Shown here: one piece after another, positions 52,756 through 64,000 of the stretch
Numbering within the stretch: the stretch's first letter is position 1
How the letters are laid out: each line of letters begins with the position of its first letter
Assembly: GCA_002898375.1 (NCBI GenBank)
Contig: BEIN01000012.1
Location: 3,922-67,921 of the forward strand
From: a bacterium HR37
GTDB taxonomy: Bacteria; Desulfobacterota_D; UBA1144; Nemesobacterales; CSP1-2
Reading direction: 5' to 3'
DNA length: 64,000 nt
Notes under the pieces: generated by a model
Seen by the model: the letters and a program-made list of their open reading frames with translations, nothing else
Told to the model about the DNA's origin: nothing
The model's database searches: none
Position numbers and translations under genes: made by a program

Positions 52756-55455
52756 ATGCGTTATTTACTAGGCTTTCTCTCAGGTATAATGATACTCACA
52801 CATTCAATGGAGTACAGGTCGATGGGTATTGAGAGAAGCAAAGATAGGTTTGAAGGTGTAATGTTAGTTGAGGATAAACTTGGTGTTACAAAGCTAAGAC
52901 TTGAGAATGGTCTTACTGTTCTTCTTGAAGAAAACCATTCCGCTCCCGTTGTTTCTGTAAATGTCTGGGTTAAGGTGGGAAGCGTTTGTGAGCAGGAAGG
53001 AGAATATGGGCTTGCCCATGTTCACGAACATATGGTCTTTAAGGGAACGGAGAAGAGAAGCGTTGGGGAGATAGCAAGGGTTATTGAGGGTGATGGAGGC
53101 GATATAAACGCTTTTACCTCCTTTACACAGACCGTCTATTATGTAACCATAGCCAGCAGGTTTCTTGATACGGCACTCGATGTCCTTTCAGATGCTATGG
53201 GCAATGCCACTTTTGATGCAGGTGAGCTCAGGAAAGAGCTTGAGGTTATACTTGAGGAGATAAGGCGGGGTGAGGATATTCCCTCAAGGGTACTCAGTGA
53301 GAGGTTGTTTGCAGAGGCCTACAGGGTTCATCCTTTTAGAAGACCGATTATAGGAACCAGGGAAAGCGTTAGCAGTTTTACCCGTGAAAAGGTACTCAAT
53401 TTCTATAGAAAGTGGTATTCACCAAACAATATGGTGCTTGTTGTGGTTGGTGATTTTGATACCGGTAAGGTTATACCAAAGATAAAAGAGATGTTTGGAA
53501 CTCTAAAACCAAAGCCTGTTCCCGATTGCAGGGTTCCACAGGAACCACCTCAAAATGAGCTAAGACCGTTTGTGTTTGATAAGGCTGTCCAGGAAGGATA
53601 CTTTTCCCTTGCCTTTCATATTCCGGATGTAAGACATGAGGATTCTCCGGTTCTAGATGTAATAGCACACATACTTGGTGGTGGAGAAAGCTCAAGACTC
53701 TACAGGAGAGTAAAGGAGGATAAGGGGCTTGTAACAAGAATCTACAGCTATTCGTTTACCCCAAAGTATCCCGGTCTCTTTGTTGTTGGTGGAACGCTTG
53801 ATCCCGACAAAGCCAGTAGTGCTCTCTCTGAAATCCTTAAGGAAACATACCGTTTAAAATACGAACCTGTTAGCCTGGAAGAACTTTCAAGAGCAAAGGT
53901 TAACATAGAAAGTGAGTCCATATATTCTAAGGAGACAGTACAGGGACAGGCTCAGAAATTGGGATATTACGAGGTTGAAGCTGGTGATTACAAGTATGAA
54001 AGTGAGTACCTGTGGAGAATATCACAGGTTACACAGGAAGATATAATAAGGGTTGCCAGAAAGTATTTTAAGAACACCAACCTTACAGCTGGTTTTCTGT
54101 TACCTACCGGACAGCAAACGATAAAGGAAGAGGATATAGTTGAGATTGCGCGTTCTTCTTCAGAGGCAATTGAGAGGGAGTTTAAAGCCTTATTGGTGTC
54201 TCCATCAAGTGAGGTAAAGAGGGTTGTTCTAGAAAACGGTATTACCGTCCTTATAAAGGAGAACCATTCTGTTCCGCTTTTTGCTGCCCGTGCTGTTTTT
54301 CTAGGAGGAACCAGATTCGAAGACGAAAAAACAAACGGTATCTTTAACTTCTTATCCGAGATGTTTACACGTGGCACCGAAAAAAGAAGCACTGAGGACA
54401 TTGCACGTGAGATAGAATCAATTGCAGGTGAGGTAAGTGGTTTCTCCGGAAGGAATAGCTTTGGTGTGACTGTAGAGGCTCTTAGCAGAAACTTCGATAA
54501 GGCCATGGATATATTTGCAGATGTTATACTCAATCCGTCCTTTAAACCTGAGGAGGTTGAGCGGGCACGAAGGGACATACTATCCGATATAAACCGTGAA
54601 GCGGATAACCCGGTAAAGGTAGCTGTAAATCTCTTCCTGGAAACCTTATATAAGAAGCACCCATACAGGTTTAATATCCTTGGTACCAAGGACACTGTAA
54701 GCAGGATAACAAGGGATGAGTTGGTTTCTTTCTACAGAAGGTATGTCCGTCCAGAAAACATGGTTATAGCTGTTGTAGGAGATGTTGGGGAAAAAGATGT
54801 ATTGAGTGTGGTGGATAAGTATTTTAAACACATGGAAAAGGGTCATTTTAAACCTCCTGCAGTAAGCCCTGAGCCACCTCCAGATAGTGTAAGGGTAGGG
54901 GTAGTTAAACAGAAGGACAAGGCTCAAACCCATATAATACTTGGTTTTCAGGCACCCACTATTAAAGACCCTGATCAGTATCCTTTTGAGGTTTTAAATG
55001 CGGTTCTTGCAGGTCAGGGAGGAAGGCTTTTTATAGAGCTTAGAGATAAAAGAAGCCTTGCTTACTCTGTTACTTCTTTTCTTAACTTTGGGCTGGAGCC
55101 GGGTTTCTTTGGAGTCTACATAGGGTGTGCTCCGGAAAAAGAAGAAGAGGCTATCTCCGGTATAAAAGAGCAGCTCTCTTTGATTCTAAAAGAAGGTATT
55201 ACTCCAGATGAGTTAAAACGTGCTCAGAACTACCTTGTAGGAAACTTTGAAATAGGTCTTCAGCAGAACTCCTCTCAGGCTGCAAAAATCGCCTTTGATG
55301 AGCTCTATGGAGTAGGATGGGATGAATACAAGAAGTATCCGGAGAAGATATACTCGGTAACTAGAGAAGATGTACTTAGAGTAGCAAGAAAGTATATAGA
55401 CCTCAACAAATATGCTATTGCTATAGTGAGACCGGAAGAAGAGGGAAATCTCTGA
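52756..55455 (+). CDS. M16-family zinc peptidase (tandem M16 units, pitrilysin-like)
   Basis: Inverted zinc motif HVHEHMVFKGT near the N-terminus and a second inactive-type M16 repeat in the C-terminal half. 899 aa. Confidence 0.8.
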   Translation: MRYLLGFLSGIMILTHSMEYRSMGIERSKDRFEGVMLVEDKLGVTKLRLENGLTVLLEENHSAPVVSVNVWVKVGSVCEQEGEYGLAHVHEHMVFKGTEKRSVGEIARVIEGDGGDINAFTSFTQTVYYVTIASRFLDTALDVLSDAMGNATFDAGELRKELEVILEEIRRGEDIPSRVLSERLFAEAYRVHPFRRPIIGTRESVSSFTREKVLNFYRKWYSPNNMVLVVVGDFDTGKVIPKIKEMFGTLKPKPVPDCRVPQEPPQNELRPFVFDKAVQEGYFSLAFHIPDVRHEDSPVLDVIAHILGGGESSRLYRRVKEDKGLVTRIYSYSFTPKYPGLFVVGGTLDPDKASSALSEILKETYRLKYEPVSLEELSRAKVNIESESIYSKETVQGQAQKLGYYEVEAGDYKYESEYLWRISQVTQEDIIRVARKYFKNTNLTAGFLLPTGQQTIKEEDIVEIARSSSEAIEREFKALLVSPSSEVKRVVLENGITVLIKENHSVPLFAARAVFLGGTRFEDEKTNGIFNFLSEMFTRGTEKRSTEDIAREIESIAGEVSGFSGRNSFGVTVEALSRNFDKAMDIFADVILNPSFKPEEVERARRDILSDINREADNPVKVAVNLFLETLYKKHPYRFNILGTKDTVSRITRDELVSFYRRYVRPENMVIAVVGDVGEKDVLSVVDKYFKHMEKGHFKPPAVSPEPPPDSVRVGVVKQKDKAQTHIILGFQAPTIKDPDQYPFEVLNAVLAGQGGRLFIELRDKRSLAYSVTSFLNFGLEPGFFGVYIGCAPEKEEEAISGIKEQLSLILKEGITPDELKRAQNYLVGNFEIGLQQNSSQAAKIAFDELYGVGWDEYKKYPEKIYSVTREDVLRVARKYIDLNKYAIAIVRPEEEGNL

Positions 55456-55458
55456 TTC

Positions 55459-55734
55459 TTACACAACGATTACATCATCTTGTAGTACCCTCTTTACTGT
55501 TCCAAGCCTCTCAATCTTTTGAAGGCATCTGGGACAGAGTTCATAGAAGATTACGCTGTCTTCTTTTTTTATTATCTTCTCAACCTTTCTTTTCATTATA
55601 AGCAGGTTTGTATCACTAAGCCTACATTCAAAGACGCTTAGTTGCACAGGGGTTCCAAAACCCTCAAGGGTTTTAAACAGTTTTAACCTCCTCTTATCAT
55701 CTGTTATGTCGTAGGCAAGAACTATGTTTCTCAT
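55459..55734 (-). CDS. cas2: CRISPR-associated endoribonuclease Cas2
   Basis: 91 aa with the Cas2 pattern (LVLAYDITDDKRR.K..K.L..FG..VQ.SVFEC). It lies directly downstream of the cas4-cas1 fusion gene. Confidence 0.85.
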   Translation of the reverse strand: MRNIVLAYDITDDKRRLKLFKTLEGFGTPVQLSVFECRLSDTNLLIMKRKVEKIIKKEDSVIFYELCPRCLQKIERLGTVKRVLQDDVIVV

Positions 55735-57347
55735 CTAAGTGCAAAGGGTATGTATTCCTCTATCTCTCCCTTTATGAACTTGGCAAGGAGCCTTGCTTGT
55801 ATCTCAAATGCCCTGCGATAGCTTACCCGGTACTCAAAGATAGGATGCAGTATCTCAGATTGAATTTTTCCTATATAGGCCTTAAAGAAGGTTTCTCTAC
55901 CCTTTTCCTGTATGTATATGCCACCGAATCTTTCTTTAAAATCCTCTTTTGTAAACATGTTTCTGTTAAGAACGGATAAAACAAGTGAGTCCACTATTAC
56001 CGGACGAAACTCCTCCATCAGATCAAGTGCAAGGGCTGGTCTTCCATATCTTGTGGAGTGAAGAAAACCAATGTAGGGGTCAAACCCCACGGTGGATACG
56101 GTTGATATAAAATTACCCACAAGAAGACTATATCCGAAGCTAAGAAGGGCATTTACCGGGTCTCTAGGTGGTCGTTTTGTTCTCTTCTCAAAATCAAAGT
56201 CAAGCTTTGGTTTTAATAGCTTTCCAAATACTCTAAAGTAGTCTCTTGTTGCAATCCCTTCAAGACCAAGGAGTTCTTCTTTATCTCCTGCATCGGGTAT
56301 CCTGGTAATAACATTTTTAATCCGAATGCATGCTTCATCTATCTCTCTGTCCCCAAATTCCCTGTTTTGTCTTAGTAGAAGAGTTCGCATGTTAAGTAGC
56401 TTTCCCTTTACAAAGGACTTTGATACCTCTAGGGTAAAATCCCTGTCTATATGTCTTCTGTACTGCTCGATCCTCAAAAGAGAGTTTTTGTTCTCTTCGG
56501 GAACAAATTTACCCTCAAATCTACCGAATGTGGATTGATATACTATATCAACATTAAGCCTTAGGAGGAACTTTAGGGCTTGTGTGGATATGTTTGCGTT
56601 TGCTGATATAATTAACTGCCTAAGATAAGAGGCGGGTATCTCTGTTATAACTTTTCCGTCTTTAGTAACCGTAATCTTCCCTCCTCTCTTACCGATATAA
56701 GCACCGTGTTCGTCCACATAGAGGACTCTTCCGGTGTTGAGTTCGGTTATAATGCGTTTTGGTTTTTCCCCTTTTTCCTTAATAAACCTGGTTTCAAAGG
56801 GAAGGCATACAGAAAGCAGAGAACAACCATGACATCGTGTGTCTGCAACGGGTTCAGGGATCTCACCTCTGTAGAGTATTTCCCTGGCTTTATCTATTGC
56901 CTCAATGGATTTGTTTCTGAGTTCCTGACTAAATTCTACCCTTCTTCTTACCCTAGATGAGTAGTAGTATATGTATCCATATTGAACCGTTTTCCCCACG
57001 TGTTCTTCTAAAAGAAGTGCCTCAAGACAGAGTTGAACATCGTCTGAAAGGCTCTCCTTTAGGTATCCCCTTTTATACTCTATTGGGTAGATTTCTCCGT
57101 CATTTTCAACAGCATCAAGAACCCCAATTATACCAAGCCTTTCAGAAGAGAGGGTTATTTCTTTAACCTGTAGTTTTTCCTGTGTTCTAAGCCTTTCTCT
57201 TTCTTTTCTCTTCTCATCCTTAATGTTTCCTTCCACTACAAATCTGTTTACTGTGTTTTCTCCTTCGCATGCCCGATAGTAAAAGTTTCTTGGACAGAAT
57301 ACAAGCTCTGCAACCAGTGATACCGGTATAAGCTCATCCCACATCAT
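55731..57347 (-). CDS. cas1: Cas4-Cas1 fusion protein
   Basis: N-terminal Cas4/RecB nuclease with one N-proximal Cys (FCPRNF) and a C-x2-C-x5-C cluster (CHGCSLLSVC). The C-terminal ~340 aa form a Cas1 integrase fold (GRVLYVDEHGAYIGKRGGKITV...). Confidence 0.85.
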   Translation of the reverse strand: MMWDELIPVSLVAELVFCPRNFYYRACEGENTVNRFVVEGNIKDEKRKERERLRTQEKLQVKEITLSSERLGIIGVLDAVENDGEIYPIEYKRGYLKESLSDDVQLCLEALLLEEHVGKTVQYGYIYYYSSRVRRRVEFSQELRNKSIEAIDKAREILYRGEIPEPVADTRCHGCSLLSVCLPFETRFIKEKGEKPKRIITELNTGRVLYVDEHGAYIGKRGGKITVTKDGKVITEIPASYLRQLIISANANISTQALKFLLRLNVDIVYQSTFGRFEGKFVPEENKNSLLRIEQYRRHIDRDFTLEVSKSFVKGKLLNMRTLLLRQNREFGDREIDEACIRIKNVITRIPDAGDKEELLGLEGIATRDYFRVFGKLLKPKLDFDFEKRTKRPPRDPVNALLSFGYSLLVGNFISTVSTVGFDPYIGFLHSTRYGRPALALDLMEEFRPVIVDSLVLSVLNRNMFTKEDFKERFGGIYIQEKGRETFFKAYIGKIQSEILHPIFEYRVSYRRAFEIQARLLAKFIKGEIEEYIPFALR

Positions 57348-57958
57348 GACTCTCTGTATGTTCTTTTTACAGAAGGTATTTTTGAGTATCTGCCTTTCTC
57401 AAAGTGAAATAGCTCAATATTGTAGTGTGATAGCCCTATAAGCTGTCCTAACTGAAACCCAAGAACAACTGGCATTGATAGAAACAGTTGAATTTTTGGG
57501 CCCTTGTGTACGGTGTTTATTGTTCTAACAAAGTTCCACACCCTTTTTGCAATTGTGGGAAAAGCGGTTAGTGGTATCTCTTCTACATGGGAGATCAGGT
57601 ATTCTACGGGTCTTTCAAGCTGTATTCTTACGTCTTCTTCAATCTTTCTGGAGAATTCTACAACAAGTGTTATATCGTTTTCCAAAGCAGCTTTTTTAAT
57701 GTAGTTGTTTATCGCCGTTATATCGTTGTTTTGGATGAACTCTTTATAAGCACACATAAGGTCGTTTCCAAGCTCTCCTTTAAGTGATATCAAGGGTAAG
57801 GAGGGTGTTTTATCTCTGGTGTTGGTATCTTTTTTCTGATTCGCCAAGGATAGAGAACCTCTTCTTCTCACTCCTTTATTTACAGCAATCTGTATGACTT
57901 TCCCAAAGATAAGTCCAGAGACGCTTTCCAGTAAGGAGGTTGCAAGTATCTCAATCAT
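57344..57958 (-). CDS. Unassigned cas-locus protein (204 aa), translationally coupled to cas4-cas1
   Basis: Its stop overlaps the cas4-cas1 ATG (ATGA). The first ~26 aa are hydrophobic and the C-terminus carries a Gly/Leu-rich motif (LSMPVVLGFQLGQLIG). No family recognised. Confidence 0.4.
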   Translation of the reverse strand: MIEILATSLLESVSGLIFGKVIQIAVNKGVRRRGSLSLANQKKDTNTRDKTPSLPLISLKGELGNDLMCAYKEFIQNNDITAINNYIKKAALENDITLVVEFSRKIEEDVRIQLERPVEYLISHVEEIPLTAFPTIAKRVWNFVRTINTVHKGPKIQLFLSMPVVLGFQLGQLIGLSHYNIELFHFEKGRYSKIPSVKRTYRES

Positions 57959-58056
57959 GGTAAACGTTTTTTTCTCTTTTGGGTAATCTTAAAACAGTTA
58001 GGGATTTGGTTAAAGGTAGAGCAACCTTTCAGAAATATTTCAGATTATTTGGTTAG

Positions 58057-59139
58057 CTAAGTAAGGACTACAGGCCTTATCTTGCTTCTGTCAATGTGAA
58101 TTCCGTATCTTGTATGGCCATAAACTCTTTTTTGCCCTAATGGGGTTATTTTGTAATATATTGCTATCTTTTTATCATCAAGGGCATTTTCTATAGCCCT
58201 GTTAATCTTACTTATATCCTGGAGTAGATTCTCTGTAGAGAATTTATATCTTCTGAGATCAGCATCTGGTATCATGCTTTTTATATAAGACTTAATATCA
58301 TCCAGGTTGTTTTTTATCGAGTGTGTTCCTTTAAGTGCCTGAAAGCACTCTTCTTCGCTCATGTTAAGTCTTCTCTGTACGAAGTAGGTGTATAGAGCCA
58401 GGAGTTTGGGATTTAGTTTTATTTCCCTATTTCCAATTAGCAATCTCCTATTTTTGAGATCAACTTGAAGGGAGTACAGTGAGGGGCTTATATCTATTTC
58501 CCTCTGGGCTATCTTAACCAGTTCACTGAACGAGAATTTTTCAGAACCAAACAGATTGTCTAGCTTCCCTCTTAACCTTACGTAAGGAATCTCAGCTAGG
58601 TGAATGGGTGCTTTTTCTCTTCTTGATTTTGATGGATAAAAGAAGCTCTTGTTCTGTTCCAGTTTTTCATCTACAAGGACATGTGAGAGAGTATCTTCCT
58701 TTCTTCCAAACAGCATAAGGGCATAGGCAAGGTAGATAGACATTGTTTTTCTTCCTCCTGCAATGGAGCAGTGAAGAATGACATCTGGATCTTTTGTCTT
58801 TTCTTTTATAAACTCTGTAATCTGGTCCGCAACCAGCTCATTATCTTTTACGGTGCGTATATCCTTAAGTGGTTTTCCTTTTGAGTCTTTAAGCAGTATT
58901 ATGGAATCTTCACCAAATTGGATTGATGATGGAGTTATACCATATTCTTTACAGAATGATAAAAGCATCTTTTTGTTGATGAGTTTATCTACAACCTCTT
59001 TTTTCCCGTTTAAAGTTGTTATGACAATGATTCTTGATATTCTGGCAGGAGGTTTCTTTATTTGGGTAAGGTAGTATAGTGTTTCTGTTATAACTTGAGG
59101 ATTAAGTCCAGCAACTGCGACGAGTATTTCCTCTTTCAT
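58057..59139 (-). CDS. CARF-domain protein with C-terminal wHTH-like region (Csa3/Csx1-like sensor, no HEPN motif)
   Basis: N-terminal Rossmann-like CARF motifs (ILVAVAGLNPQVITETLYYL ... ILHCSIAGGRKTMS). The C-terminal stretch (KLNPKLLALYTYFVQRR...) looks like a winged helix. No R-x4-6-H found. Confidence 0.55.
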   Translation of the reverse strand: MKEEILVAVAGLNPQVITETLYYLTQIKKPPARISRIIVITTLNGKKEVVDKLINKKMLLSFCKEYGITPSSIQFGEDSIILLKDSKGKPLKDIRTVKDNELVADQITEFIKEKTKDPDVILHCSIAGGRKTMSIYLAYALMLFGRKEDTLSHVLVDEKLEQNKSFFYPSKSRREKAPIHLAEIPYVRLRGKLDNLFGSEKFSFSELVKIAQREIDISPSLYSLQVDLKNRRLLIGNREIKLNPKLLALYTYFVQRRLNMSEEECFQALKGTHSIKNNLDDIKSYIKSMIPDADLRRYKFSTENLLQDISKINRAIENALDDKKIAIYYKITPLGQKRVYGHTRYGIHIDRSKIRPVVLT

Positions 59140-59465
59140 CGTTTTCTTTTAACCTTAGTCTGAACCTTTCTCTGTTCTACTATATTTAAACCAGAAAGAT
59201 AACTCATTCAACCTGTAAATACTATTATGTATAACCTTAAATTTTACCTCTTCTTTTCTAAACCAAGCCCGTTTAAATTCCAAGAAAAACATGATCAAGC
59301 ACTCTCTCTATACCCGAGCTGAATGCTGAAGCCTTTCTATGCATTTAAACTGTTATACCTGTTGCAACAGGTATATAGGTTCAAACCGTCAAGTAGTATA
59401 TAGGATTTCAACTTATTTTATAGGTTCCCGTATCAGGTTTGATAAGACTGATATTGCATAAATGC

Positions 59466-59633
59466 TTAAAGCGTTATTCGTCCTCTCCCAAAAATAAGAG
59501 ATATTACAAATAAGACCAGGAAAAGTATAAATAGAATCTTTGCAATACCTGCTGCGGTGCCTGCAATACCACTGAATCCTAAAACTCCTGCGACCAATGC
59601 TATAATTAAAAAAACTGCTGCCCATCCCAGCAT
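59466..59633 (-). CDS. UPF0391/DUF1328-family small membrane protein (55 aa), not in ORF track
   Basis: ATG with ribosome-binding site GGAGGTAGG. Translation [55 protein letters not shown] matches the conserved YtjA-like pattern (GFSGIAG.A..IAKILF). Confidence 0.55.
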
Positions 59634-59844
59634 TTATCCTACCTCCTTTTTATTACCCGAAAGCGGGTTTAACCCGTTTTATACATAAACCTCTTCCTAT
59701 AGTCTCACGAATAGTTCCTCCTGTCAATAAAAATTTGCTCTCCAATGGGTCTGTGTTTGTTAAAATAAGCTTTTTACCTTAATGAGGACTGTGAATATTT
59801 CCCAAAGGAATTACAACCTGAAGCAAATGTACCCTTTGGTGAGA

Positions 59845-60665
59845 TGTGAAATTCCCTACGGGAATTAGAGGTATTTCTACAAGTGATAATCTCCACTTCC
59901 TACCTCTGGAGACTGCAAAAGGGGCGTTTCAATTCCCTACGGGAATTAGAGGTATTTCTACCTGGTAAGAGACTTTGTGTCTTTTGTTGGTTCTACTACC
60001 ACTCATGTTTCAATTCCCTACGGGAATTAGAGGTATTTCTACGTAGAACTGGTACGTGAGAAAGTAACAATTCCAACGAAGTTTCAATTCCCTACGGGAA
60101 TTAGAGGTATTTCTACCCACGTCATACCTTTGAGGTGGCTCACGATATTATTGTTTCAATTCCCTACGGGAATTAGAGGTATTTCTACAAAGACTGTCAA
60201 CAAACCAGAACCTTCTCCACTCCTTAACAACGAGTTTCAATTCCCTACGGGAATTAGAGGTATTTCTACGAAATACTAACTGTTTCTCTAGTCCGTGTAT
60301 TATCACCAACTTATGACAAGAGTTTCAATTCCCTACGGGAATTAGAGGTATTTCTACGGAACAATAATGCTACCTGTCTGCCTTGACCTTACAAGTTTCA
60401 ATTCCCTACGGGAATTAGAGGTATTTCTACCGTATCACCCTACGGAGAACAATATCCGCTTGCTTGACTGTTTCAATTCCCTACGGGAATTAGAGGTATT
60501 TCTACTAGTCAAAACAAGAGGGCTAACATACGAACAGGCAAGGGAGATCCTGTTTCAATTCCCTACGGGAATTAGAGGTATTTCTACTTGCCTGTCTTGG
60601 TACTAAAGTCAGTGATGATGTATGGAAATGTTTCAATTCCCTACGGGAATTAGAGGTATTTCTAC
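59845..60665 (-). CRISPR. CRISPR array: 11 x 36-nt repeats, consensus on + strand GTTTCAATTCCCTACGGGAATTAGAGGTATTTCTAC, 10 spacers of 36-52 nt
   Basis: Repeat starts are 59845 (degenerate: ATGTGA instead of GTTTCA), 59926, 60007, 60081, 60153, 60234, 60322, 60395, 60470, 60552 and 60630. Spacer lengths are 45, 45, 38, 36, 45, 52, 37, 39, 46 and 42 nt. The internal palindrome is TTCCCTACGGGAA. The strand is inferred: on the minus strand the repeat ends ...ATTGAAAC, the classic Cas6 8-nt handle, and the degenerate repeat is at the low-coordinate (distal) end. Confidence 0.95.
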
Positions 60666-60968
60666 AGCACCCTTATTTTCTCTAATGATTTAAATGAGTT
60701 AGTATGCAGTTTTCGAGAACCTCTAGTTATCAACAACTTATCCACAGGACAATTTTTGTCAATGTTACATAACCCATTTAAATCACTTGATTTTCTAAAT
60801 TCGAGCAACCCCCCACTTTTTTGCATTCCCTCGATGCTCGATGAAAATAATTATCATTATTACCTGATAAATATTAAAAATTAAGTTTTCAAAGAACCGA
60901 TTTCACTGAACAAGTGCTTTAAGCTCAATCTTAGTAAATTTAAAATCCCATGTCAATACTTTTTTATA
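60666..60968 (-). promoter_or_regulatory. Putative CRISPR leader (AT-rich, between csm6-like stop and first repeat)
   Basis: A 303-nt AT-rich non-coding stretch that abuts the intact terminal repeat. It lies downstream of the effector genes in the minus-strand direction. Confidence 0.4.
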
Positions 60969-62090
60969 TTATCCGTTAAAATATGTTTCATTCAGGTCAA
61001 CAAGTGCAGCCTTTAAAGTAACCTTGTTTTGTGAGGGAATCTCCACATTAAACTTTGCGGTTCTTTTTCCATCGCTGAATATAAGCACAATCTTGTTATG
61101 GTTGGGGTCGAATTCGAATCTGTTCCTTTCCGGCAAATCTGGATGTGTGTAGAAATCTCTAATAGTTTTTACGTATCTTTTATCTCTCCATACCTTCTTT
61201 ACAAAAGTTTCTGCTCCAAAGGGTGGCCTGTGATAAAAGTGTTTGGAAAAAGCAGGTTCTTCTTTAACCGGTTGAATGTCTCCAAGCAGGTAGCTCTTTT
61301 CTTTTTTAAACCTGTAGAGAAACATTTCATGAAAGAGTTGGCCAACCGGAGTTAAGGCAACGTGTTTTTCTTGGTTTATTGTTTCCACTTCTATAAGTGT
61401 TTTTAACCTCTCATCTGCCACCAGTTCTTTTACTTCTTCATACGGAGCTATGCTCTTTTTGGAGAGGTTGTCCAGGCTTTCATAATGTAGAAGCCAGAGA
61501 TCAAAATTAAAACTTATAGGCTGGGGAGGAAGTTCTATTATGTCTTCAAATTTTTCAAACATATACATAACCGGTATTTCCAGAGCCTGTCCTATAAGGC
61601 CTGCAAATGAGGTTTGCGCTTTATATCCTCCTGTAGCGTTTATAACAATACGTTCCGTTCCTTTTTCTCTTACGATCTTTGCAATCTCTTTCACAAGATT
61701 TTTAAGTCCTTCAGTTTTAAACTTTTTTACATCGTAGTCTTTAAGGCCTTCTATTACGGTTGCAACTACCCTCTCAAATTTATAGGGGTTCTGAGAATCC
61801 TGATAGTAGTGCTTAAGTATTTCACCTATTTCCCAGCCTTCATCGGTATGAGAGATAAGAAGGTGAAGTTCGTTTCTTTCCGAAAGTTTCCCTTTTTCAA
61901 TGATACTTGTAATGGAGTTTATCTCGGCTCCGCATACTCTATCTCTTGGATTTCGTTTAAGCAGTTCTTTTACAAGGCCTATAATGTTTCCTTTTTTCTC
62001 ATATACTTTTAGAGGCTCTTTATCATCTAGCCGTTCGATGTTGCTAAGCAGGCTTGTCCCCACTGTGCAAATCAGTGTATCACGCCTCAT
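60969..62090 (-). CDS. CARF-HEPN protein, Csm6/Csx1-like (putative cOA-activated RNase)
   Basis: N-terminal CARF motifs (LICTVGTSLL ... INATGGYKAQT) and a C-terminal R-x4-H motif (IRDFYTH). Its start overlaps the cas6 stop (ATGA). Confidence 0.6.
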   Translation of the reverse strand: MRRDTLICTVGTSLLSNIERLDDKEPLKVYEKKGNIIGLVKELLKRNPRDRVCGAEINSITSIIEKGKLSERNELHLLISHTDEGWEIGEILKHYYQDSQNPYKFERVVATVIEGLKDYDVKKFKTEGLKNLVKEIAKIVREKGTERIVINATGGYKAQTSFAGLIGQALEIPVMYMFEKFEDIIELPPQPISFNFDLWLLHYESLDNLSKKSIAPYEEVKELVADERLKTLIEVETINQEKHVALTPVGQLFHEMFLYRFKKEKSYLLGDIQPVKEEPAFSKHFYHRPPFGAETFVKKVWRDKRYVKTIRDFYTHPDLPERNRFEFDPNHNKIVLIFSDGKRTAKFNVEIPSQNKVTLKAALVDLNETYFNG

Positions 62091-62896
62091 TGCTTTACCC
62101 TTACTGCTTGTCCCATTCCCATTGTGGTTTTATATCCTATCCCTGAGTAAAAAGCAAAATCGGCAAGGGTATTTAAAATCTTTTTTTCTTTCCGGACAAA
62201 TTCTTTTCCCAGTCTGTATTCTAGTATACCTTTAAACCCTATAACCTTGTAATTTGAGAAAGTTACAATCTCGCTTTTTAACTCAAACTGTGATGGATAG
62301 ATTGTGTTTAGTTTCTCTGTAAAGCTTTTGTCAAAGGTTATACCTGAAAATGAGTTCCATCTATCAATCAGAGAGCCAAAGATGAGGTAGGCTTCGGGTA
62401 ATGTACACTGCTTTCCCCTGATTCTGAAAGAAGTGGGTGAGAAAAACTTAAGTCGTATTTTGTCATCTGGTTGTGCTTCCTCAAACAGTTTGGGGTAGAG
62501 GGATGACCTTACCCAAAGATTTGAACTTTCCTTATAGTGTATGTTATTAAGAAGTATCTTTCCGTTTCCCAGTGTAAGGCTGGTTTTAAGGTTTAGGGCT
62601 TTCCCAAATGCAGCAAGGGTGTCAGGAAGAAGTTTTTCTTCCAGTATGGATATTCTAAAGGAGGCCTTTTCCCCACCTTCCAGTATTATTTTCCCTTCGG
62701 TTTTTGGTTTTTTCTCAAGAATGCCGGATAGTGAAAATGGTTTTTGTCTATTGCTTCCATTGTGGAGGTACTCTGCCACTTTTTTGGAGTAATTTTTTAA
62801 GACCTCAAAGAAAAGCCCGTGTATTGCTTCTCCCCCATAGCCATTTAGGACTATAGCCTCTAGGGTTTCAAACTCGATAACAAAGCTTGAGAGCAT
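62087..62896 (-). CDS. cas6: CRISPR repeat endoribonuclease Cas6
   Basis: C-terminal glycine-rich loop GIGYKTTMGMG (GhGxxxxxGhG) and a ferredoxin-like N-terminus. Its start overlaps the upstream RAMP stop (TAATG). Confidence 0.85.
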   Translation of the reverse strand: MLSSFVIEFETLEAIVLNGYGGEAIHGLFFEVLKNYSKKVAEYLHNGSNRQKPFSLSGILEKKPKTEGKIILEGGEKASFRISILEEKLLPDTLAAFGKALNLKTSLTLGNGKILLNNIHYKESSNLWVRSSLYPKLFEEAQPDDKIRLKFFSPTSFRIRGKQCTLPEAYLIFGSLIDRWNSFSGITFDKSFTEKLNTIYPSQFELKSEIVTFSNYKVIGFKGILEYRLGKEFVRKEKKILNTLADFAFYSGIGYKTTMGMGQAVRVKQ

Positions 62897-64000
62897 TACT
62901 CGACCTCTATTCTGATCCAGCCAAGTGTTAATTCTTCTTTTGTTGCTGGATTTATTACAACTTTTCTGGTTTTTGGAAAGTTACTTGTATTTATTCTTCT
63001 ACCTGTGGTTTTAAGAAGTTCAACGTAGTTTCTATAGGTTTCATCTCCCAGGTGTTTTATAAGTTTTGCAAGTGTTATGCTTATAAAACCTTGATGTTTT
63101 CCAATCCTTATTACTGGGGCATTTTCGCTATTGGTCCTTTTTATGTTCTCAAGCTGGCTTATTGCACTGTATACCTTTAACTTTCTGTAAAAATCAAGTT
63201 CCTCTTCAATGATTTCCTTAGACATTTCATAACATGCTTTAAGTACCTGATCAAGATTGCCAAAAAAAGATTTTTTCTGAATATCTGTACCAAAGTGATT
63301 TGCAAAATCTTCGAACTGTTTTCCTTGTATAATTCCAATTTCTCCTTGAAACTCGGTATTACTTGAAATAATTTCGTGAAATTCCCCTGTGATTCGGGAA
63401 CTGTTTTTAATTTGTATCTTTGCTATTATTCTTTCCGCATTTTTAGAATAAGCATCGGATACAAGTATAAACTTTAAAAAATCAAATTTGGCATCATTTC
63501 TAAGCCTTAGAACTTTTTGAGAGATTTTCTCCTCTAATTTTTTCAATTCTTCTCTAACTTCTTTTCTATTGCCTAGGGACTTTCTTTTAATTTTATTTAT
63601 CTCATTGGAAAGGAAGCTGGTTAAGGAGCTATCAAGAATTAACTTCCTAAGAATAGCTGTTCTTAGTGCCCCTTTAATCTCAGTACCCGGTATGTAAGGT
63701 TGGTTTCTTGATTTGATAAGTGTCCAGATTTTTTGAGGAGTTTCACTGCCCCATAAAGGCAGTGAAGAAGAAGCTCTTTTAGAGGCGAACTTTAATATTT
63801 TCTCAGTATTGCTATATGTTTCAAAAAAACCCAGAAGACTGGGTGATTCGCTGTTGGTGACGTATTGAATAAAATCCTCAAGTTGGTCTTTTGTTAGGAA
63901 TCTCTTTAGCTGTTCGGAGTTAAACAAATGGATTTTTCTGTTATAGTAGAAGTATTCTAAATTGCTTAAGGTGTTTCCATCACCTATATGGATTGGGGAA
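62896..64000 (-). CDS. Type III RAMP protein, Csm5-like (Cas7 group), 5' end beyond window
   Basis: Contains the RAMP motif YIPGTEIKGALRTAIL. The ORF-track start at 63927 is a TTG, and the frame stays open upstream to the window edge (...SPIHIGDGNTLSNLEYFYYNRKIH-L-FNSEQ...). Confidence 0.6.
   Translation of the reverse strand, partial: SPIHIGDGNTLSNLEYFYYNRKIHLFNSEQLKRFLTKDQLEDFIQYVTNSESPSLLGFFETYSNTEKILKFASKRASSSLPLWGSETPQKIWTLIKSRNQPYIPGTEIKGALRTAILRKLILDSSLTSFLSNEINKIKRKSLGNRKEVREELKKLEEKISQKVLRLRNDAKFDFLKFILVSDAYSKNAERIIAKIQIKNSSRITGEFHEIISSNTEFQGEIGIIQGKQFEDFANHFGTDIQKKSFFGNLDQVLKACYEMSKEIIEEELDFYRKLKVYSAISQLENIKRTNSENAPVIRIGKHQGFISITLAKLIKHLGDETYRNYVELLKTTGRRINTSNFPKTRKVVINPATKEELTLGWIRIEVE

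What the first reader, a model, noticed from the sequence alone, without database searches (positions are those of the whole stretch)
55459..64000. Type III-like CRISPR-Cas island with a cas4-cas1 fusion and two different CARF sensors flanking the array
On the minus strand the order is csm5-like, cas6, a CARF-HEPN gene, the leader, the array, then a second CARF-wHTH gene, an unknown gene, a cas4-cas1 fusion and cas2. Cas4-Cas1 fusions are typical of class 1 adaptation modules, but pairing one with a type III effector set and two distinct CARF proteins is uncommon. It implies elaborate cyclic-oligoadenylate signalling. The cas10 and backbone genes must lie beyond coordinate 64000.
Basis: partly seen in the sequence, partly recalled or inferred. 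Interest (0 to 1): 0.6.

Follow-up and report, generated by a model that had tools for sequence, protein, structure and literature searches.

The report
Type III-A CRISPR locus, three cOA sensors
This is a real, intact type III-A CRISPR-Cas immune locus of a hot-spring bacterium. It carries a fused Cas4-Cas1 spacer-acquisition enzyme and three second-messenger sensor proteins; its parts belong to catalogued families, but the way it appears to be regulated is worth a specialist's look.

Summary

On the minus strand, in order:
- csm5, which runs off the window end
- cas6
- a 373-aa CARF7-wHTH protein whose C-terminus is a 'DUF2103-like' domain, not HEPN
- leader
- an array of 11 repeats and 10 spacers
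- a CARF5/NE0113 protein with an OmpR/PhoB-like winged helix
- a Cas4-Cas1 fusion
- cas2

The prediction that cas10 lies beyond 64000 holds. The source genome (bacterium HR37) encodes Cas10/Csm1 with HD and GGDD motifs, Csm2 and Csm3 on the same contig, in serial order with Csm5. A relative 92.9% identical in DNA shows cas10-csm2-csm3-csm4-csm5. The subtype is III-A.

New here:
- A palindrome, CAATATTTC-N-GAAAnnTTG, follows the CARF5 gene ahead of the SAVED-cas4cas1-cas2 operon. It also lies upstream of cas10 in related loci. This suggests a cOA-responsive regulator that controls both interference and adaptation, as Csa3 does.
- Closely related strains carry a III-A cassette, a III-D cassette or no effector cassette next to the same adaptation block.

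Verdict: a new member of a known kind, of moderate interest.

The parts
55459..55734 (-). cas2 (91 aa)
   Evidence: Pfam CRISPR_Cas2 1.3e-22 and TIGR01573 1.6e-16. dN/dS is 0.12 against close strains.
55731..57347 (-). cas4-cas1 fusion (538 aa), closest to the type I-G kind
   Evidence: Cas4 covers residues 10-182 and Cas1 residues 209-491. NCBIfam NF049935 Cas4g/Cas1g scores 601 bits against a cut-off of 560. All of the following are invariant in alignment A5: the four Fe-S cysteines C18, C172, C175 and C181; the RecB residues D78, E90 and K92; and the Cas1 residues E363, H430, D442 and E445.
57344..57958 (-). mini-SAVED gene (204 aa): hydrophobic N-terminal helix, variable basic linker, then a domain matching the C-terminal half of SAVED. 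Its stop overlaps the cas4-cas1 start.
   Evidence: Pfam SAVED scores 28.2 bits (cut-off 26.2), with residues 90-192 matching profile positions 75-185 of 190. PADLOC SAVED4--SAVED gives 3.7e-40. Only 7 homologous clusters exist. The gene always lies between the CARF5 gene and cas4-cas1. dN/dS is 0.10-0.12.
58018..58042 (-). Palindromic operator-like motif TGAAATATTTCTGAAAGGTTGCTCT (core 58023-58039), between the CARF5 stop codon and the mini-SAVED start
   Evidence: It is conserved at this position in every related locus. It recurs upstream of cas10 in L001, L002, L007 and L025, and directly after the CARF5 stop codon upstream of cas10 in L023. It is the only hit of 12 bits or more in the 64-kb window; shuffles gave 0-1.
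58057..59139 (-). CARF5 / Cas_NE0113 protein (360 aa): N-terminal CARF, C-terminal OmpR/PhoB-like winged helix. Predicted cOA-responsive regulator, possibly also a ring nuclease.
   Evidence: Pfam Cas_NE0113 1.2e-38; TIGR02584 1.1e-54; PADLOC CARF5--CARF 7.7e-94 over the full length. A profile of the C-terminus hits OmpR/PhoB DNA-binding domains in the PDB: KdpE at E=0.011, then SaeR, MtrA, PrrA and PmrA. hhalign to PhoB gives 50% probability. The family is predicted to be a transcription regulator in PMC4012209.
59845..60665 (-). CRISPR array: 10 perfect 36-nt repeats (GTAGAAATACCTCTAATTCCCGTAGGGAATTGAAAC) plus a degenerate terminal repeat at 59845-59880; 10 spacers of 36-52 nt
   Evidence: The repeat folds into a 7-8-bp hairpin near its 3' end and ends in ATTGAAAC. 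No spacer is shared with strains that are 93% identical.
60666..60968 (-). Leader with a promoter-like site (TTGACA-17-TAAGAT at 60956-60928)
   Evidence: The leader is homologous to those of L003 and L004 as far as about 60897 and 60964 respectively.
60969..62090 (-). CARF7 (Cas_APE2256) - wHTH - 'DUF2103-like' protein (373 aa): the candidate cA4-activated effector, with ring-nuclease residues in its CARF domain. It is not HEPN.
   Evidence: PADLOC CARF7--CARF_DUF2103 6.3e-115. The AF2 model has pLDDT 92. The best Foldseek match is Cami1 (8phb, 2.7e-17), followed by Crn1-type SSO1393 and Sis0811. Sequence homology to Cami1 covers only residues 6-255. K157 aligns with the catalytic K169 of Sis0811, and S13 and K157 are invariant. 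More than 880 full-length homologs exist.
62087..62896 (-). cas6 (269 aa)
   Evidence: Pfam CRISPR_Cas6 plus Cas6_N; TIGR01877; the best PADLOC model is Cas6d, 2.9e-43.
62896..64000 (-). csm5, truncated by the window end (full protein 380 aa; the start is inferred at about 64038)
   Evidence: TIGR01899 Csm5 8.3e-27. It is 100% identical to P0001, HRbin37_01608. The ORF is open to the window end and matches P0001 from residue 14.

Best explanation
The region is the downstream two-thirds of a complete, active type III-A (Csm) CRISPR-Cas locus of bacterium HR37, from a lineage whose relatives here are labelled Candidatus Dadabacteria.

Shown:
- The order is cas10(HD+GGDD)-csm2-csm3-csm4-csm5-cas6-CARF7 gene-leader-array-(DUF1328)-CARF5 gene-palindrome-miniSAVED-cas4/cas1-cas2.
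- All ORFs are intact and under purifying selection.
- The array turns over between strains.

Inferred from established type III biology:
- Cas6 cuts the repeat hairpin to give crRNAs with an 8-nt AUUGAAAC tag.
- The Csm complex binds a complementary transcript.
- The Cas10 HD domain cuts ssDNA and its palm domain makes cyclic oligoadenylate. The messenger is probably cA4, because the closest characterised relatives of the sensors all use cA4: Cami1, Crn1/Sis0811 and CalpL.

Inferred here:
1. The 373-aa CARF7-wHTH-DUF2103-like protein is the main cA4-activated toxic effector. It has the architecture of Cami1 but a different C-terminal domain of unknown activity. It switches itself off, because its CARF domain keeps the Ser and Lys ring-nuclease residues.
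2. The CARF5/NE0113 protein is a dimeric cA4-sensing winged-helix regulator. It binds the palindrome CAATATTTC-N-GAAAnnTTG, which lies in front of both the cas10 operon and the miniSAVED-cas4cas1-cas2 operon. Interference and spacer acquisition would then be co-regulated by the signal, as with Csa3a and Csa3b in Sulfolobales.
3. The mini-SAVED is a third small cOA-binding protein, most likely tethered to the membrane by its N-terminal helix and acting as an accessory effector or sensor.
4. The Cas4-Cas1-Cas2 module, of type I-G/I-D ancestry, supplies spacers to the type III array.

The confidence given applies to the identity and the general mechanism. The regulatory inference (point 2) on its own is about 0.4.
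For: Identity:
- HMM hits for every gene.
- HR37 Cas10, Csm2 and Csm3 lie on the same contig, with serial accessions and locus tags.
- HD and GGDD motifs are present.
- L002 is 92.9% identical in DNA and shows the same synteny.

Activity:
- dN/dS is about 0.1 for all genes tested except cas6 (0.23).
- No spacers are shared among strains that are 93% identical.
- Cas4 and Cas1 catalytic residues are invariant.

Effector:
- AF2 model with pLDDT 92. Foldseek finds Cami1 at 2.7e-17 and Crn1-type nucleases.
- K157 aligns with K169 of Sis0811.
- The DUF2103-like domain is described as a candidate toxin or effector domain fused to Cas_APE2256 (PMC12065111).

Regulator:
- The C-terminal profile hits OmpR/PhoB DNA-binding domains.
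- The palindrome was found by alignment, by an exact 13-mer, by BLAST and by PWM.
- It lies upstream of cas10 in L001, L002, L007 and L025.
- In L023 (CARF5 56% identical) it lies right after the CARF5 stop codon upstream of cas10, and again beside csm6. Chance expectation there is 0.11.
- The right arm varies without compensating changes, and the window copy does not fold as RNA (-1.2 kcal/mol, z = 0.23).
- Csa3a is a precedent (PMC8699464), and the NE0113 family is predicted to be a regulator (PMC4012209).
Against: - The window itself does not contain cas10 or its upstream region. These are inferred from protein records of the same contig and from a 92.9%-identical relative.
- No biochemical activity is known for the DUF2103-like domain. 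Profile comparison with RelE, YoeB and HigB was negative.
- The winged-helix assignment rests on marginal E-values (0.011-1.2) that cover only the first third of the domain.
- Some other factor could bind the palindrome.
- OmpR/PhoB domains usually bind direct repeats, not inverted repeats.
- The N-terminal helix of the mini-SAVED is only a marginal transmembrane candidate (Kyte-Doolittle 1.7-2.0; Hessa sum +4 to +5 kcal/mol).
- No protospacers were found, so targets and any PAM are unknown.
Confidence: 0.75

Rival explanations
1. The CARF5/NE0113 protein is only a ring nuclease, an off-switch like Crn1 or Csx14. The palindrome has nothing to do with it: it is the CARF5 gene's terminator, or a site for some other factor.
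For: - NCBIfam names TIGR02584 a 'ring nuclease'. There are weak hits to Csx14 (2e-9) and Crn1 (2.1e-5).
- The related CARF5 domain of Cad1 is described as a ring nuclease in a paper title.
- Crn1-type proteins also carry wHTH-like domains with no known DNA binding.
- The copies upstream of SAVED are followed by a T-run, and the L007 copy folds at -4.5 kcal/mol.
Against: - The copies upstream of cas10 have no T-run and follow no gene that would need termination.
- The window copy does not fold.
- The arms vary without compensation.
- The motif tracks CARF5 orthologues into a lineage with a different gene order (L023).
- Ring-nuclease activity and DNA binding do not exclude each other.
Confidence: 0.25
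2. The mini-SAVED is an independent small membrane effector or cOA sponge, like Cam1, Csx23 or TM-SAVED. It sits next to cas4-cas1 only through shared ancestry and plays no part in adaptation.
For: - A conserved hydrophobic N-terminal helix is followed by a basic stretch.
- PADLOC shows similarity to SAVED_TM and to 1TM CBASS effectors.
- All known copies come from one narrow clade, so the conserved synteny may be inherited rather than functional.
Against: - Its stop overlaps the cas4-cas1 start.
- It is absent from L023, the lineage that lacks cas1 and cas2.
- It is retained, together with the adaptation genes, in strains that have no adjacent effector cassette (L003, L004).
- The transmembrane prediction is marginal.
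Confidence: 0.45
3. The adaptation block is a relic of a lost type I (I-G or I-D) system that merely lies beside an unrelated type III-A cassette. The two do not work together.
For: - The Cas4-Cas1 fusion types as I-G, and Cas6 scores best as Cas6d.
- The effector cassette varies between strains (III-A, III-D or none) while the adaptation block stays.
Against: - No type I effector gene was found in the window or in any related locus.
- There is a single array with one repeat type, flanked by both modules.
- The same palindrome precedes both operons.
- CARF and SAVED sensors only make sense alongside a Cas10 cyclase.
- Spacer turnover shows that adaptation is active.
Confidence: 0.08
4. The locus is decaying and non-functional.
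For: A related locus (L007) is heavily fragmented: cas10, csm5, the CARF7 gene and cas4-cas1 are broken, and a transposase fragment is present.
Against: - All window ORFs are intact.
- dN/dS is about 0.1.
- The catalytic motifs are intact.
- Spacer content differs between near-identical strains.
Confidence: 0.04

Closest known systems
Type III-A (Csm) CRISPR-Cas systems, e.g. Staphylococcus epidermidis, Streptococcus thermophilus, Thermus thermophilus
   Same: - The cas10(HD+GGDD)-csm2-csm3-csm4-csm5-cas6 operon, the adjacent array and the CARF accessory genes.
- The predicted mechanism: transcript-activated cOA signalling plus HD DNase.
   Different: - The adaptation module is a Cas4-Cas1 fusion of the I-G type rather than a plain cas1-cas2 pair.
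- There is no Csm6 HEPN effector in this strain.
- There are three sensors from less-studied families.
Cami1 (CARF-wHTH-RelE; PDB 8phb/8phj)
   Same: - The CARF7 and wHTH domains are homologous (E = 2e-21 over residues 6-255).
- It is the best structural match, and the overall three-domain layout and size agree.
- The expected ligand is cA4.
   Different: - The C-terminal domain shows no detectable sequence relation to RelE, YoeB or HigB.
- It belongs to the 'DUF2103-like' group, whose activity and fold assignment are unknown.
Crn1-type ring nucleases (Sso2081, SSO1393, Sis0811)
   Same: - The CARF7 fold.
- The Ser (GTS) and Lys (GG[YF]K) catalytic positions are conserved.
- A wHTH follows the CARF domain.
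   Different: The window protein carries an extra C-terminal domain of about 100 aa and is 373 aa long, against about 180-275 aa.
Csa3a/Csa3b CARF-wHTH regulators of Sulfolobales
   Same: - A CARF sensor fused to a winged helix, encoded beside the adaptation genes.
- Palindromic sites in the promoters of the cas operons.
- The proposed link from type III cA4 to expression of adaptation and interference genes.
   Different: - A different CARF clade (CARF5/NE0113).
- An OmpR/PhoB-like rather than a Csa3-type wHTH.
- A bacterial host, and a type III rather than a type I target operon.
- DNA binding has not been tested.
CalpL (SAVED4-Lon) and TM-SAVED, Cam1 and Csx23 small membrane effectors
   Same: - Homology to the SAVED4 family in the C-terminal lobe.
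- A small protein with an N-terminal hydrophobic helix, encoded in a type III locus.
   Different: - There is no protease or other effector domain.
- Only half of a canonical SAVED domain is matched.
- It is encoded as the first gene of the cas4-cas1-cas2 operon.
Type I-G (I-U) adaptation module (Cas4-Cas1 fusion plus Cas2)
   Same: The fusion architecture, the catalytic residues and a score above the NCBIfam Cas4g/Cas1g cut-off.
   Different: No type I-G effector genes (cas3, cas8u, cas7u, cas5u). It serves a type III array.

Membership tests
Type III-A CRISPR-Cas | Cas10/Csm1 large subunit with a cyclase palm (GGDD), with or without an HD domain | tested here: met
   The gene is not in the window, but the protein is from the same HR37 contig. 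P0370 (GBD39337.1, 854 aa) has GALLHDIGK and YSGGDDLF. The relatives L001 and L002 have the same motifs.
Type III-A CRISPR-Cas | Csm2 small subunit plus the Csm3, Csm4 and Csm5 RAMPs in one operon | tested here: met
   - Csm5 is in the window (TIGR01899, 8.3e-27).
- HR37 Csm2 (HRbin37_01611) and Csm3 lie on the same contig.
- The full order is seen in L002 and L001, with PF03750 Csm2_III-A.
- Csm4 of HR37 itself was not retrieved.
Type III-A CRISPR-Cas | Cas6 and a CRISPR array with a hairpin repeat | tested here: met
Cas4-Cas1 fusion (type I-G kind) | Cas4 nuclease with a 4-Cys cluster and RecB motifs, fused to Cas1 with the E/H/D triad | tested here: met
   NF049935 scores 601 bits against 560. 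C18, C172, C175, C181, D78, E90, K92, E363, H430 and D442 are invariant.
Type I-G CRISPR-Cas system | Type I-G effector genes (cas3, cas8u/csx17, cas7u, cas5u) adjacent | tested here: not met
   No such genes were found in the window island or in any related locus.
Csm6/Csx1 (CARF-HEPN) | C-terminal HEPN domain with a conserved Rx4-6H motif | tested here: not met
   - For the 373-aa protein there is no HEPN Pfam hit.
- No Arg is invariant or nearly invariant and the only conserved His is H254, so no conserved Rx4-6H motif exists in 43 homologs.
- True Csm6 HEPN genes are present in the relatives L001, L010 and L015 but absent from the window.
Cami1 (CARF-RelE) | CARF7 plus wHTH sensor module | tested here: met
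   Profile against 8phb: E = 2.1e-21 over residues 6-255. Foldseek: 2.7e-17.
Cami1 (CARF-RelE) | C-terminal RelE-family RNase domain | tested here: inconclusive
   The Foldseek alignment spans the full length (398 columns, TM 0.54) and the topology is alpha-alpha-beta4-alpha. However, hhalign against RelE, YoeB and HigB gives probabilities below 1%, and there is no Pfam hit.
Crn1-type ring nuclease | Catalytic Ser in the beta1-alpha1 loop and Lys in the GGxK motif of the CARF domain | tested here: met
   S13 and K157 are invariant. K157 aligns to K169 of Sis0811. Activity itself cannot be tested here.
Csa3-like CARF-wHTH transcription regulator | DNA-binding winged helix C-terminal to the CARF domain | tested here: inconclusive
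   For CARF5/NE0113, 8 of 12 PDB hits are OmpR/PhoB DNA-binding domains, the best at E = 0.011, but they cover only the beta-sheet and helix 1. hhalign to PhoB gives 50%. There is no Pfam hit.
Csa3-like CARF-wHTH transcription regulator | Specific operator in the promoters of the regulated cas operons | tested here: met
   A conserved palindrome lies upstream of the SAVED-cas4cas1-cas2 operon in all loci, and upstream of cas10 in L001, L002, L007, L025 and L023. Binding by this protein cannot be tested here.
SAVED-domain cOA sensors (CalpL/SAVED4) | Complete two-lobed SAVED domain | tested here: inconclusive
   Pfam SAVED is just above its cut-off but only profile positions 75-185 of 190 are matched. 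The NCBIfam score of 30.8 is below its cut-off of 33. The AF2 model is unusable (pLDDT 44.6).
SAVED-domain cOA sensors (CalpL/SAVED4) | Fused effector domain (Lon protease, nuclease, TIR and the like) | tested here: not met
   The N-terminal 98 residues have no family hit. They comprise only a hydrophobic helix and a linker.

The most novel reading that the evidence does not exclude
cA4 made by the Csm complex during interference feeds back on the locus in two ways.
- The CARF5-winged-helix protein, bound to a palindromic operator shared by the cas10 operon and the miniSAVED-cas4cas1-cas2 operon, switches both operons.
- The mini-SAVED, translationally coupled to Cas4-Cas1, passes the cA4 signal directly to the acquisition machinery.

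Spacer uptake would then be stimulated exactly when a target transcript is detected. That would be a type III counterpart of primed adaptation.
Probability: 0.15. Interest if true: 0.75.

Novelty: new member of a known kind. Interest (0 to 1): 0.4.

Why it matters
How type III systems decide when to acquire spacers, and how cOA signalling feeds back on cas gene expression in bacteria, are both poorly understood. This locus offers a compact, testable case:
- a predicted cA4-sensing DNA-binding protein;
- a defined 19-bp palindrome in front of both the interference and the adaptation operons;
- a tiny SAVED protein encoded as the first gene of the cas4-cas1-cas2 operon.

It also carries a full-length member of the large CARF7-'DUF2103-like' family (more than 880 homologs), which has not been characterised experimentally. 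This is a likely new cA4-activated effector with a Cami1-like layout.

Comparison of near-identical strains shows type III-A, type III-D or no effector cassette beside the same adaptation block. That is a clean natural example of CRISPR module shuffling.

Tried and rejected
- Looking up the window's own contig by exact protein: the truncated Csm5 ORF and P0001 are not on record.
- First scan of genome contigs with Csm5: no relative found.
- HEPN reading of the 373-aa protein: rejected.
- RelE homology of its C-terminus: hhalign against RelE, YoeB and HigB was negative, and there is no Pfam hit even at E <= 10.
- AF2 model of the mini-SAVED from 8 sequences: pLDDT 44.6, unusable, so no fold search was run.
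- Pfam on the C-termini of 44 CARF5 homologs: nothing beyond Cas_NE0113.
- PDB search with the full-length CARF5 profile: only a marginal hit to the Cad1 CARF domain.
- Protospacer search in viral contigs with two spacers: no hits. No spacer matches the window or the related loci outside their arrays.
- Rfam over 55000-64000: no hits.
- Other arrays or cas genes elsewhere in the window: none.
- The idea that the type III cassette is flanked by the palindrome as recombination sites: rejected, because in L003 and L004 the homology breaks at the leader, not at the motif.
- The idea that Csm6-HEPN and the CARF7-DUF2103-like protein exclude each other: rejected, because L007 and L023 have both.
- The paper of Makarova et al. 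2020 that classifies CARF and SAVED families is not held. Statements about its CARF5, CARF7 and SAVED4 clades rest on the PADLOC model names and on my own knowledge.

Full report
**Observation.**
The region 55459-64000 carries a run of minus-strand genes and a CRISPR array, as described. HMM searches identify the following:
- cas2 (55459-55734).
- A Cas4-Cas1 fusion (55731-57347). NCBIfam Cas4g/Cas1g scores 601 bits against a cut-off of 560.
- A 360-aa Cas_NE0113 / CARF5 protein (58057-59139).
- The array. Ten perfect copies of GTAGAAATACCTCTAATTCCCGTAGGGAATTGAAAC lie at 59926-60665, and a degenerate terminal copy lies at 59845-59880. The ten spacers are 36-52 nt long.
- A leader (60666-60968) with a TTGACA-17-TAAGAT site.
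- A 373-aa Cas_APE2256 / CARF7 protein (60969-62090).
- cas6 (62087-62896).
- csm5 (62896 onwards).

The repeat ends in ATTGAAAC, and the degenerate copy lies at the low-coordinate end. The array is therefore read on the minus strand, like the genes. The repeat forms a 7-8-bp hairpin.

**Is it type III, and is cas10 beyond the window?**
- The csm5 ORF is open to base 64000 and matches residues 14-380 of P0001, 'HRbin37_01608 [bacterium HR37]', at 100% identity. That protein is on an 84,349-nt contig.
- The contig could not be fetched.
- Cluster look-ups of the proteins of a close relative returned HR37 members on that same contig: Csm3 (GBD39335.1), Csm2 (GBD39336.1 = HRbin37_01611) and Cas10/Csm1 (GBD39337.1, 854 aa). 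Their serial numbers run on from Csm5 (…01608).
- HR37 Cas10 has the HD motif GALLHDIGK and the cyclase motif YSGGDDLF.
- The relative L002 is 92.9% identical in DNA to window 60850-64000. Its order is tRNA-Lys, cas10, csm2, csm3, csm4, csm5, cas6 and the 373-aa CARF7 gene.
- A more distant relative, L001, shows the whole locus: cas10-csm2-csm3-csm4-csm5-cas6-CARF7, then 19 repeats, two MazE/PIN pairs, csm6 (HEPN), CARF5, SAVED, cas4cas1 and cas2.

**The three sensor proteins.**

*(a) The 373-aa protein is not CARF-HEPN.*
- Its best model is PADLOC 'CARF7--CARF_DUF2103' (6.3e-115, full length).
- The family is large and uniform in length, with more than 880 hits.
- An AF2 model built on 43 sequences has pLDDT 92. 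It shows a CARF domain, a winged helix (about 196-246), a long helix, and an alpha-alpha-beta4-alpha C-terminal domain.
- Foldseek puts Cami1 (CARF-wHTH-RelE, 8phb) first at 2.7e-17, aligned over the full length. The Crn1-type ring nucleases SSO1393 and Sis0811 come next.
- Sequence homology to Cami1 stops at residue 255.
- The C-terminal domain has no Pfam hit and shows no profile similarity to RelE, YoeB or HigB.
- A 2025 paper describes a 'DUF2103-like' domain fused to Cas_APE2256 in CRISPR loci as a candidate effector with no confident structural homolog (PMC12065111).
- Conserved C-terminal residues are H254, E255, Y306, Y314, K346 and D365.
- The CARF domain keeps S13 and K157. K157 aligns with the catalytic K169 of Sis0811, so self-limiting ring-nuclease activity is likely.

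*(b) The CARF5/NE0113 protein.*
- It belongs to a very large family: 2583 representatives at E <= 1e-3.
- A profile of its C-terminal 150 residues finds OmpR/PhoB-family DNA-binding domains as 8 of its 12 PDB hits. These are KdpE (three entries, best E = 0.011), an unnamed DNA-binding response regulator (6lgq), SaeR, MtrA, PrrA and PmrA. All align on the beta-sheet and first helix.
- hhalign to PhoB agrees, at 50% probability.
- Makarova et al. 2014 predicted that NE0113 proteins regulate transcription, like Csa3 (PMC4012209).

*(c) The mini-SAVED.*
- It matches only the C-terminal half of SAVED profiles.
- It has a conserved hydrophobic N-terminal helix followed by basic residues. This is a marginal transmembrane candidate.
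- It is rare, with 7 clusters among 5.8 billion proteins.
- Its structure could not be modelled.

**Conserved block and strain variation.**
- In every locus that encodes the mini-SAVED, the order is CARF5 - SAVED - cas4/cas1 - cas2. A Csm6-HEPN gene often precedes it. The block often lies beside the same housekeeping genes: M16 peptidase, pssA, psd and ilvC.
- The genes are under purifying selection (dN/dS 0.05-0.23).
- Strains that are about 93% identical share no spacers, so acquisition is active.
- Upstream of the leader or of cas6, the strains differ:
  - the window and L002 carry a III-A cassette;
  - L018 (SAVED 95% identical) and L020 carry III-D-type genes: a III-D Csm2, three Csm3-like RAMPs, Csx19 and an extra CARF5;
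  - L003 and L004 have no effector genes there at all.
- This fits the published picture that Cas4-containing adaptation modules stay in place while effector modules are exchanged, including exchange for type III modules (PMC5704561).
Only this specific block is rare.

**A shared palindrome.**
- Aligning the CARF5-SAVED intergenic regions exposed a conserved motif, (G)CAATATTTC-N-GAAAnnTTG.
- An exact 13-mer drawn from it also hit 150 nt upstream of cas10 in L001.
- BLAST had already linked that site to one 100 nt upstream of cas10 in L002.
- A PWM then found copies upstream of the decayed cas10 of L007 and of cas10 in L025. It found exactly one site in the 64-kb window, at 58018-58042; shuffles gave 0-1.
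- In L023 the CARF5 orthologue (56% identical) sits directly upstream of cas10. There the palindrome AACATTTCTAAAATATT starts one base after its stop codon, and a second copy lies in the csm6 intergenic region. Chance expectation is 0.11.
- The left arm is nearly invariant. The right arm varies at two central positions without compensating changes, and the window copy does not fold as RNA. A protein-binding site therefore fits better than a terminator.
- The simplest reading is an operator for the dimeric CARF5-winged-helix protein. That would make the cas10 operon and the SAVED-cas4cas1-cas2 operon one cOA-responsive regulon. Csa3a and Csa3b, and the cA4 binding shown for Csa3a, are the precedent (PMC8699464).
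- This reading is an inference: binding has not been tested.

**Mechanism.**
- Shown: the gene content, the intact catalytic motifs, purifying selection, array turnover and the shared motif.
- Inferred from established type III biology:
  - Cas6 processing to crRNAs with an AUUGAAAC tag;
  - transcript-activated HD DNase and cOA synthesis, with cA4 the likely messenger given the sensor families.
- Inferred here:
  - the CARF7-DUF2103-like protein is the self-limiting effector;
  - CARF5 is the regulator;
  - the mini-SAVED is a third, possibly membrane-tethered, sensor.
- Whether the mini-SAVED acts on Cas4-Cas1 is the speculative but most interesting reading.

**Verdict.**
- This is a genuine and essentially complete type III-A locus. 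Every protein falls into a catalogued family, and the source genome is public. It is a new member of a known kind.
The HEPN call was wrong, and the third sensor was missed.
- Interest is moderate (0.4). It rests on the putative shared operator, the SAVED gene inside the adaptation operon, the uncharacterised DUF2103-like effector and the clear effector-cassette swapping among strains.

Noticed in passing
window 59466-59633 (minus strand): A 55-aa DUF1328 (YtjA-like) membrane-protein ORF lies between the array and the CARF5 gene. It is conserved at the same place in close strains, with dN/dS of 0.05. The relatives L001 and L010 carry toxin-antitoxin or other small genes and csm6 in this position instead. 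It is probably a passenger gene.
   Followed up: partly
L018:1-7000 and L020:1-6200, compared with window 60969-64000: Strains whose cas6 matches the same Cas6 model very strongly (552 and 564 bits), and in L018 also a CARF7-DUF2103-like gene, plus the same adaptation block carry a type III-D-like effector cassette upstream of cas6 instead of csm5. It comprises a III-D Csm2, three Csm3-like RAMPs, Csx19 and a second CARF5 protein.
   Followed up: partly
L003:1-5350 and L004:1-790: Strains about 93% identical to the window have the leader, the array and CARF5-SAVED-cas4cas1-cas2, but unrelated genes (Adhesin_E-like, FrhB and others) where the type III cassette should be. Whether an effector lies elsewhere in those genomes is unknown.
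   Followed up: partly
L002:37-112: A tRNA-Lys(CTT) gene lies about 230 nt upstream of cas10, on the opposite strand, in the close relative. It could be an integration hot-spot for the variable effector cassette.
   Followed up: no
L007:1600-12600: This is a decayed copy of the whole locus in a Candidatus Dadabacteria MAG. cas10, csm5, the CARF7 gene and cas4-cas1 are broken into fragments and a transposase fragment is present. The mini-SAVED and cas2 remain intact.
   Followed up: partly
L014:1-11900: The most distant Cas4-Cas1 relative (41% identical) lies in a cas6-cas4cas1-cas2 block. Next to it, on the opposite strand, is an operon with a 950-aa DnaQ-exonuclease/DinG-helicase fusion, three proteins with no family hit (639, 341 and 207 aa) and an ECF-sigma-like protein. 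This may be a type IV-like or otherwise unclassified system.
   Followed up: no
window 59881-60629, compared with L001:13086-14465: Spacer lengths in the window array are unusually spread out (36-52 nt). In L001 nearly all repeat spacings are 72-75 nt, which gives spacers of about 36-39 nt. This is odd for an array fed by a Cas4-containing module, which is expected to trim prespacers precisely.
   Followed up: no
alignments A4 and A7 (CARF5 homologs), region matching window protein residues about 255-270: Most CARF5/NE0113 homologs carry a Cx5-6CxxCxxC insertion, probably a zinc ribbon, inside the winged-helix domain. The window protein and its close relatives lack it.
   Followed up: no
L025:1123-3689: In this relative cas10 is called as two ORFs: a 200-aa HD part and a 626-aa remainder. 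This is either a frameshift or a genuine split.
   Followed up: no
window 55459-64000, compared with 1-55458: The island has lower G+C (37.6%) than the rest of the window (42.3%). csm5 is the lowest, at 33.6%.
   Followed up: no
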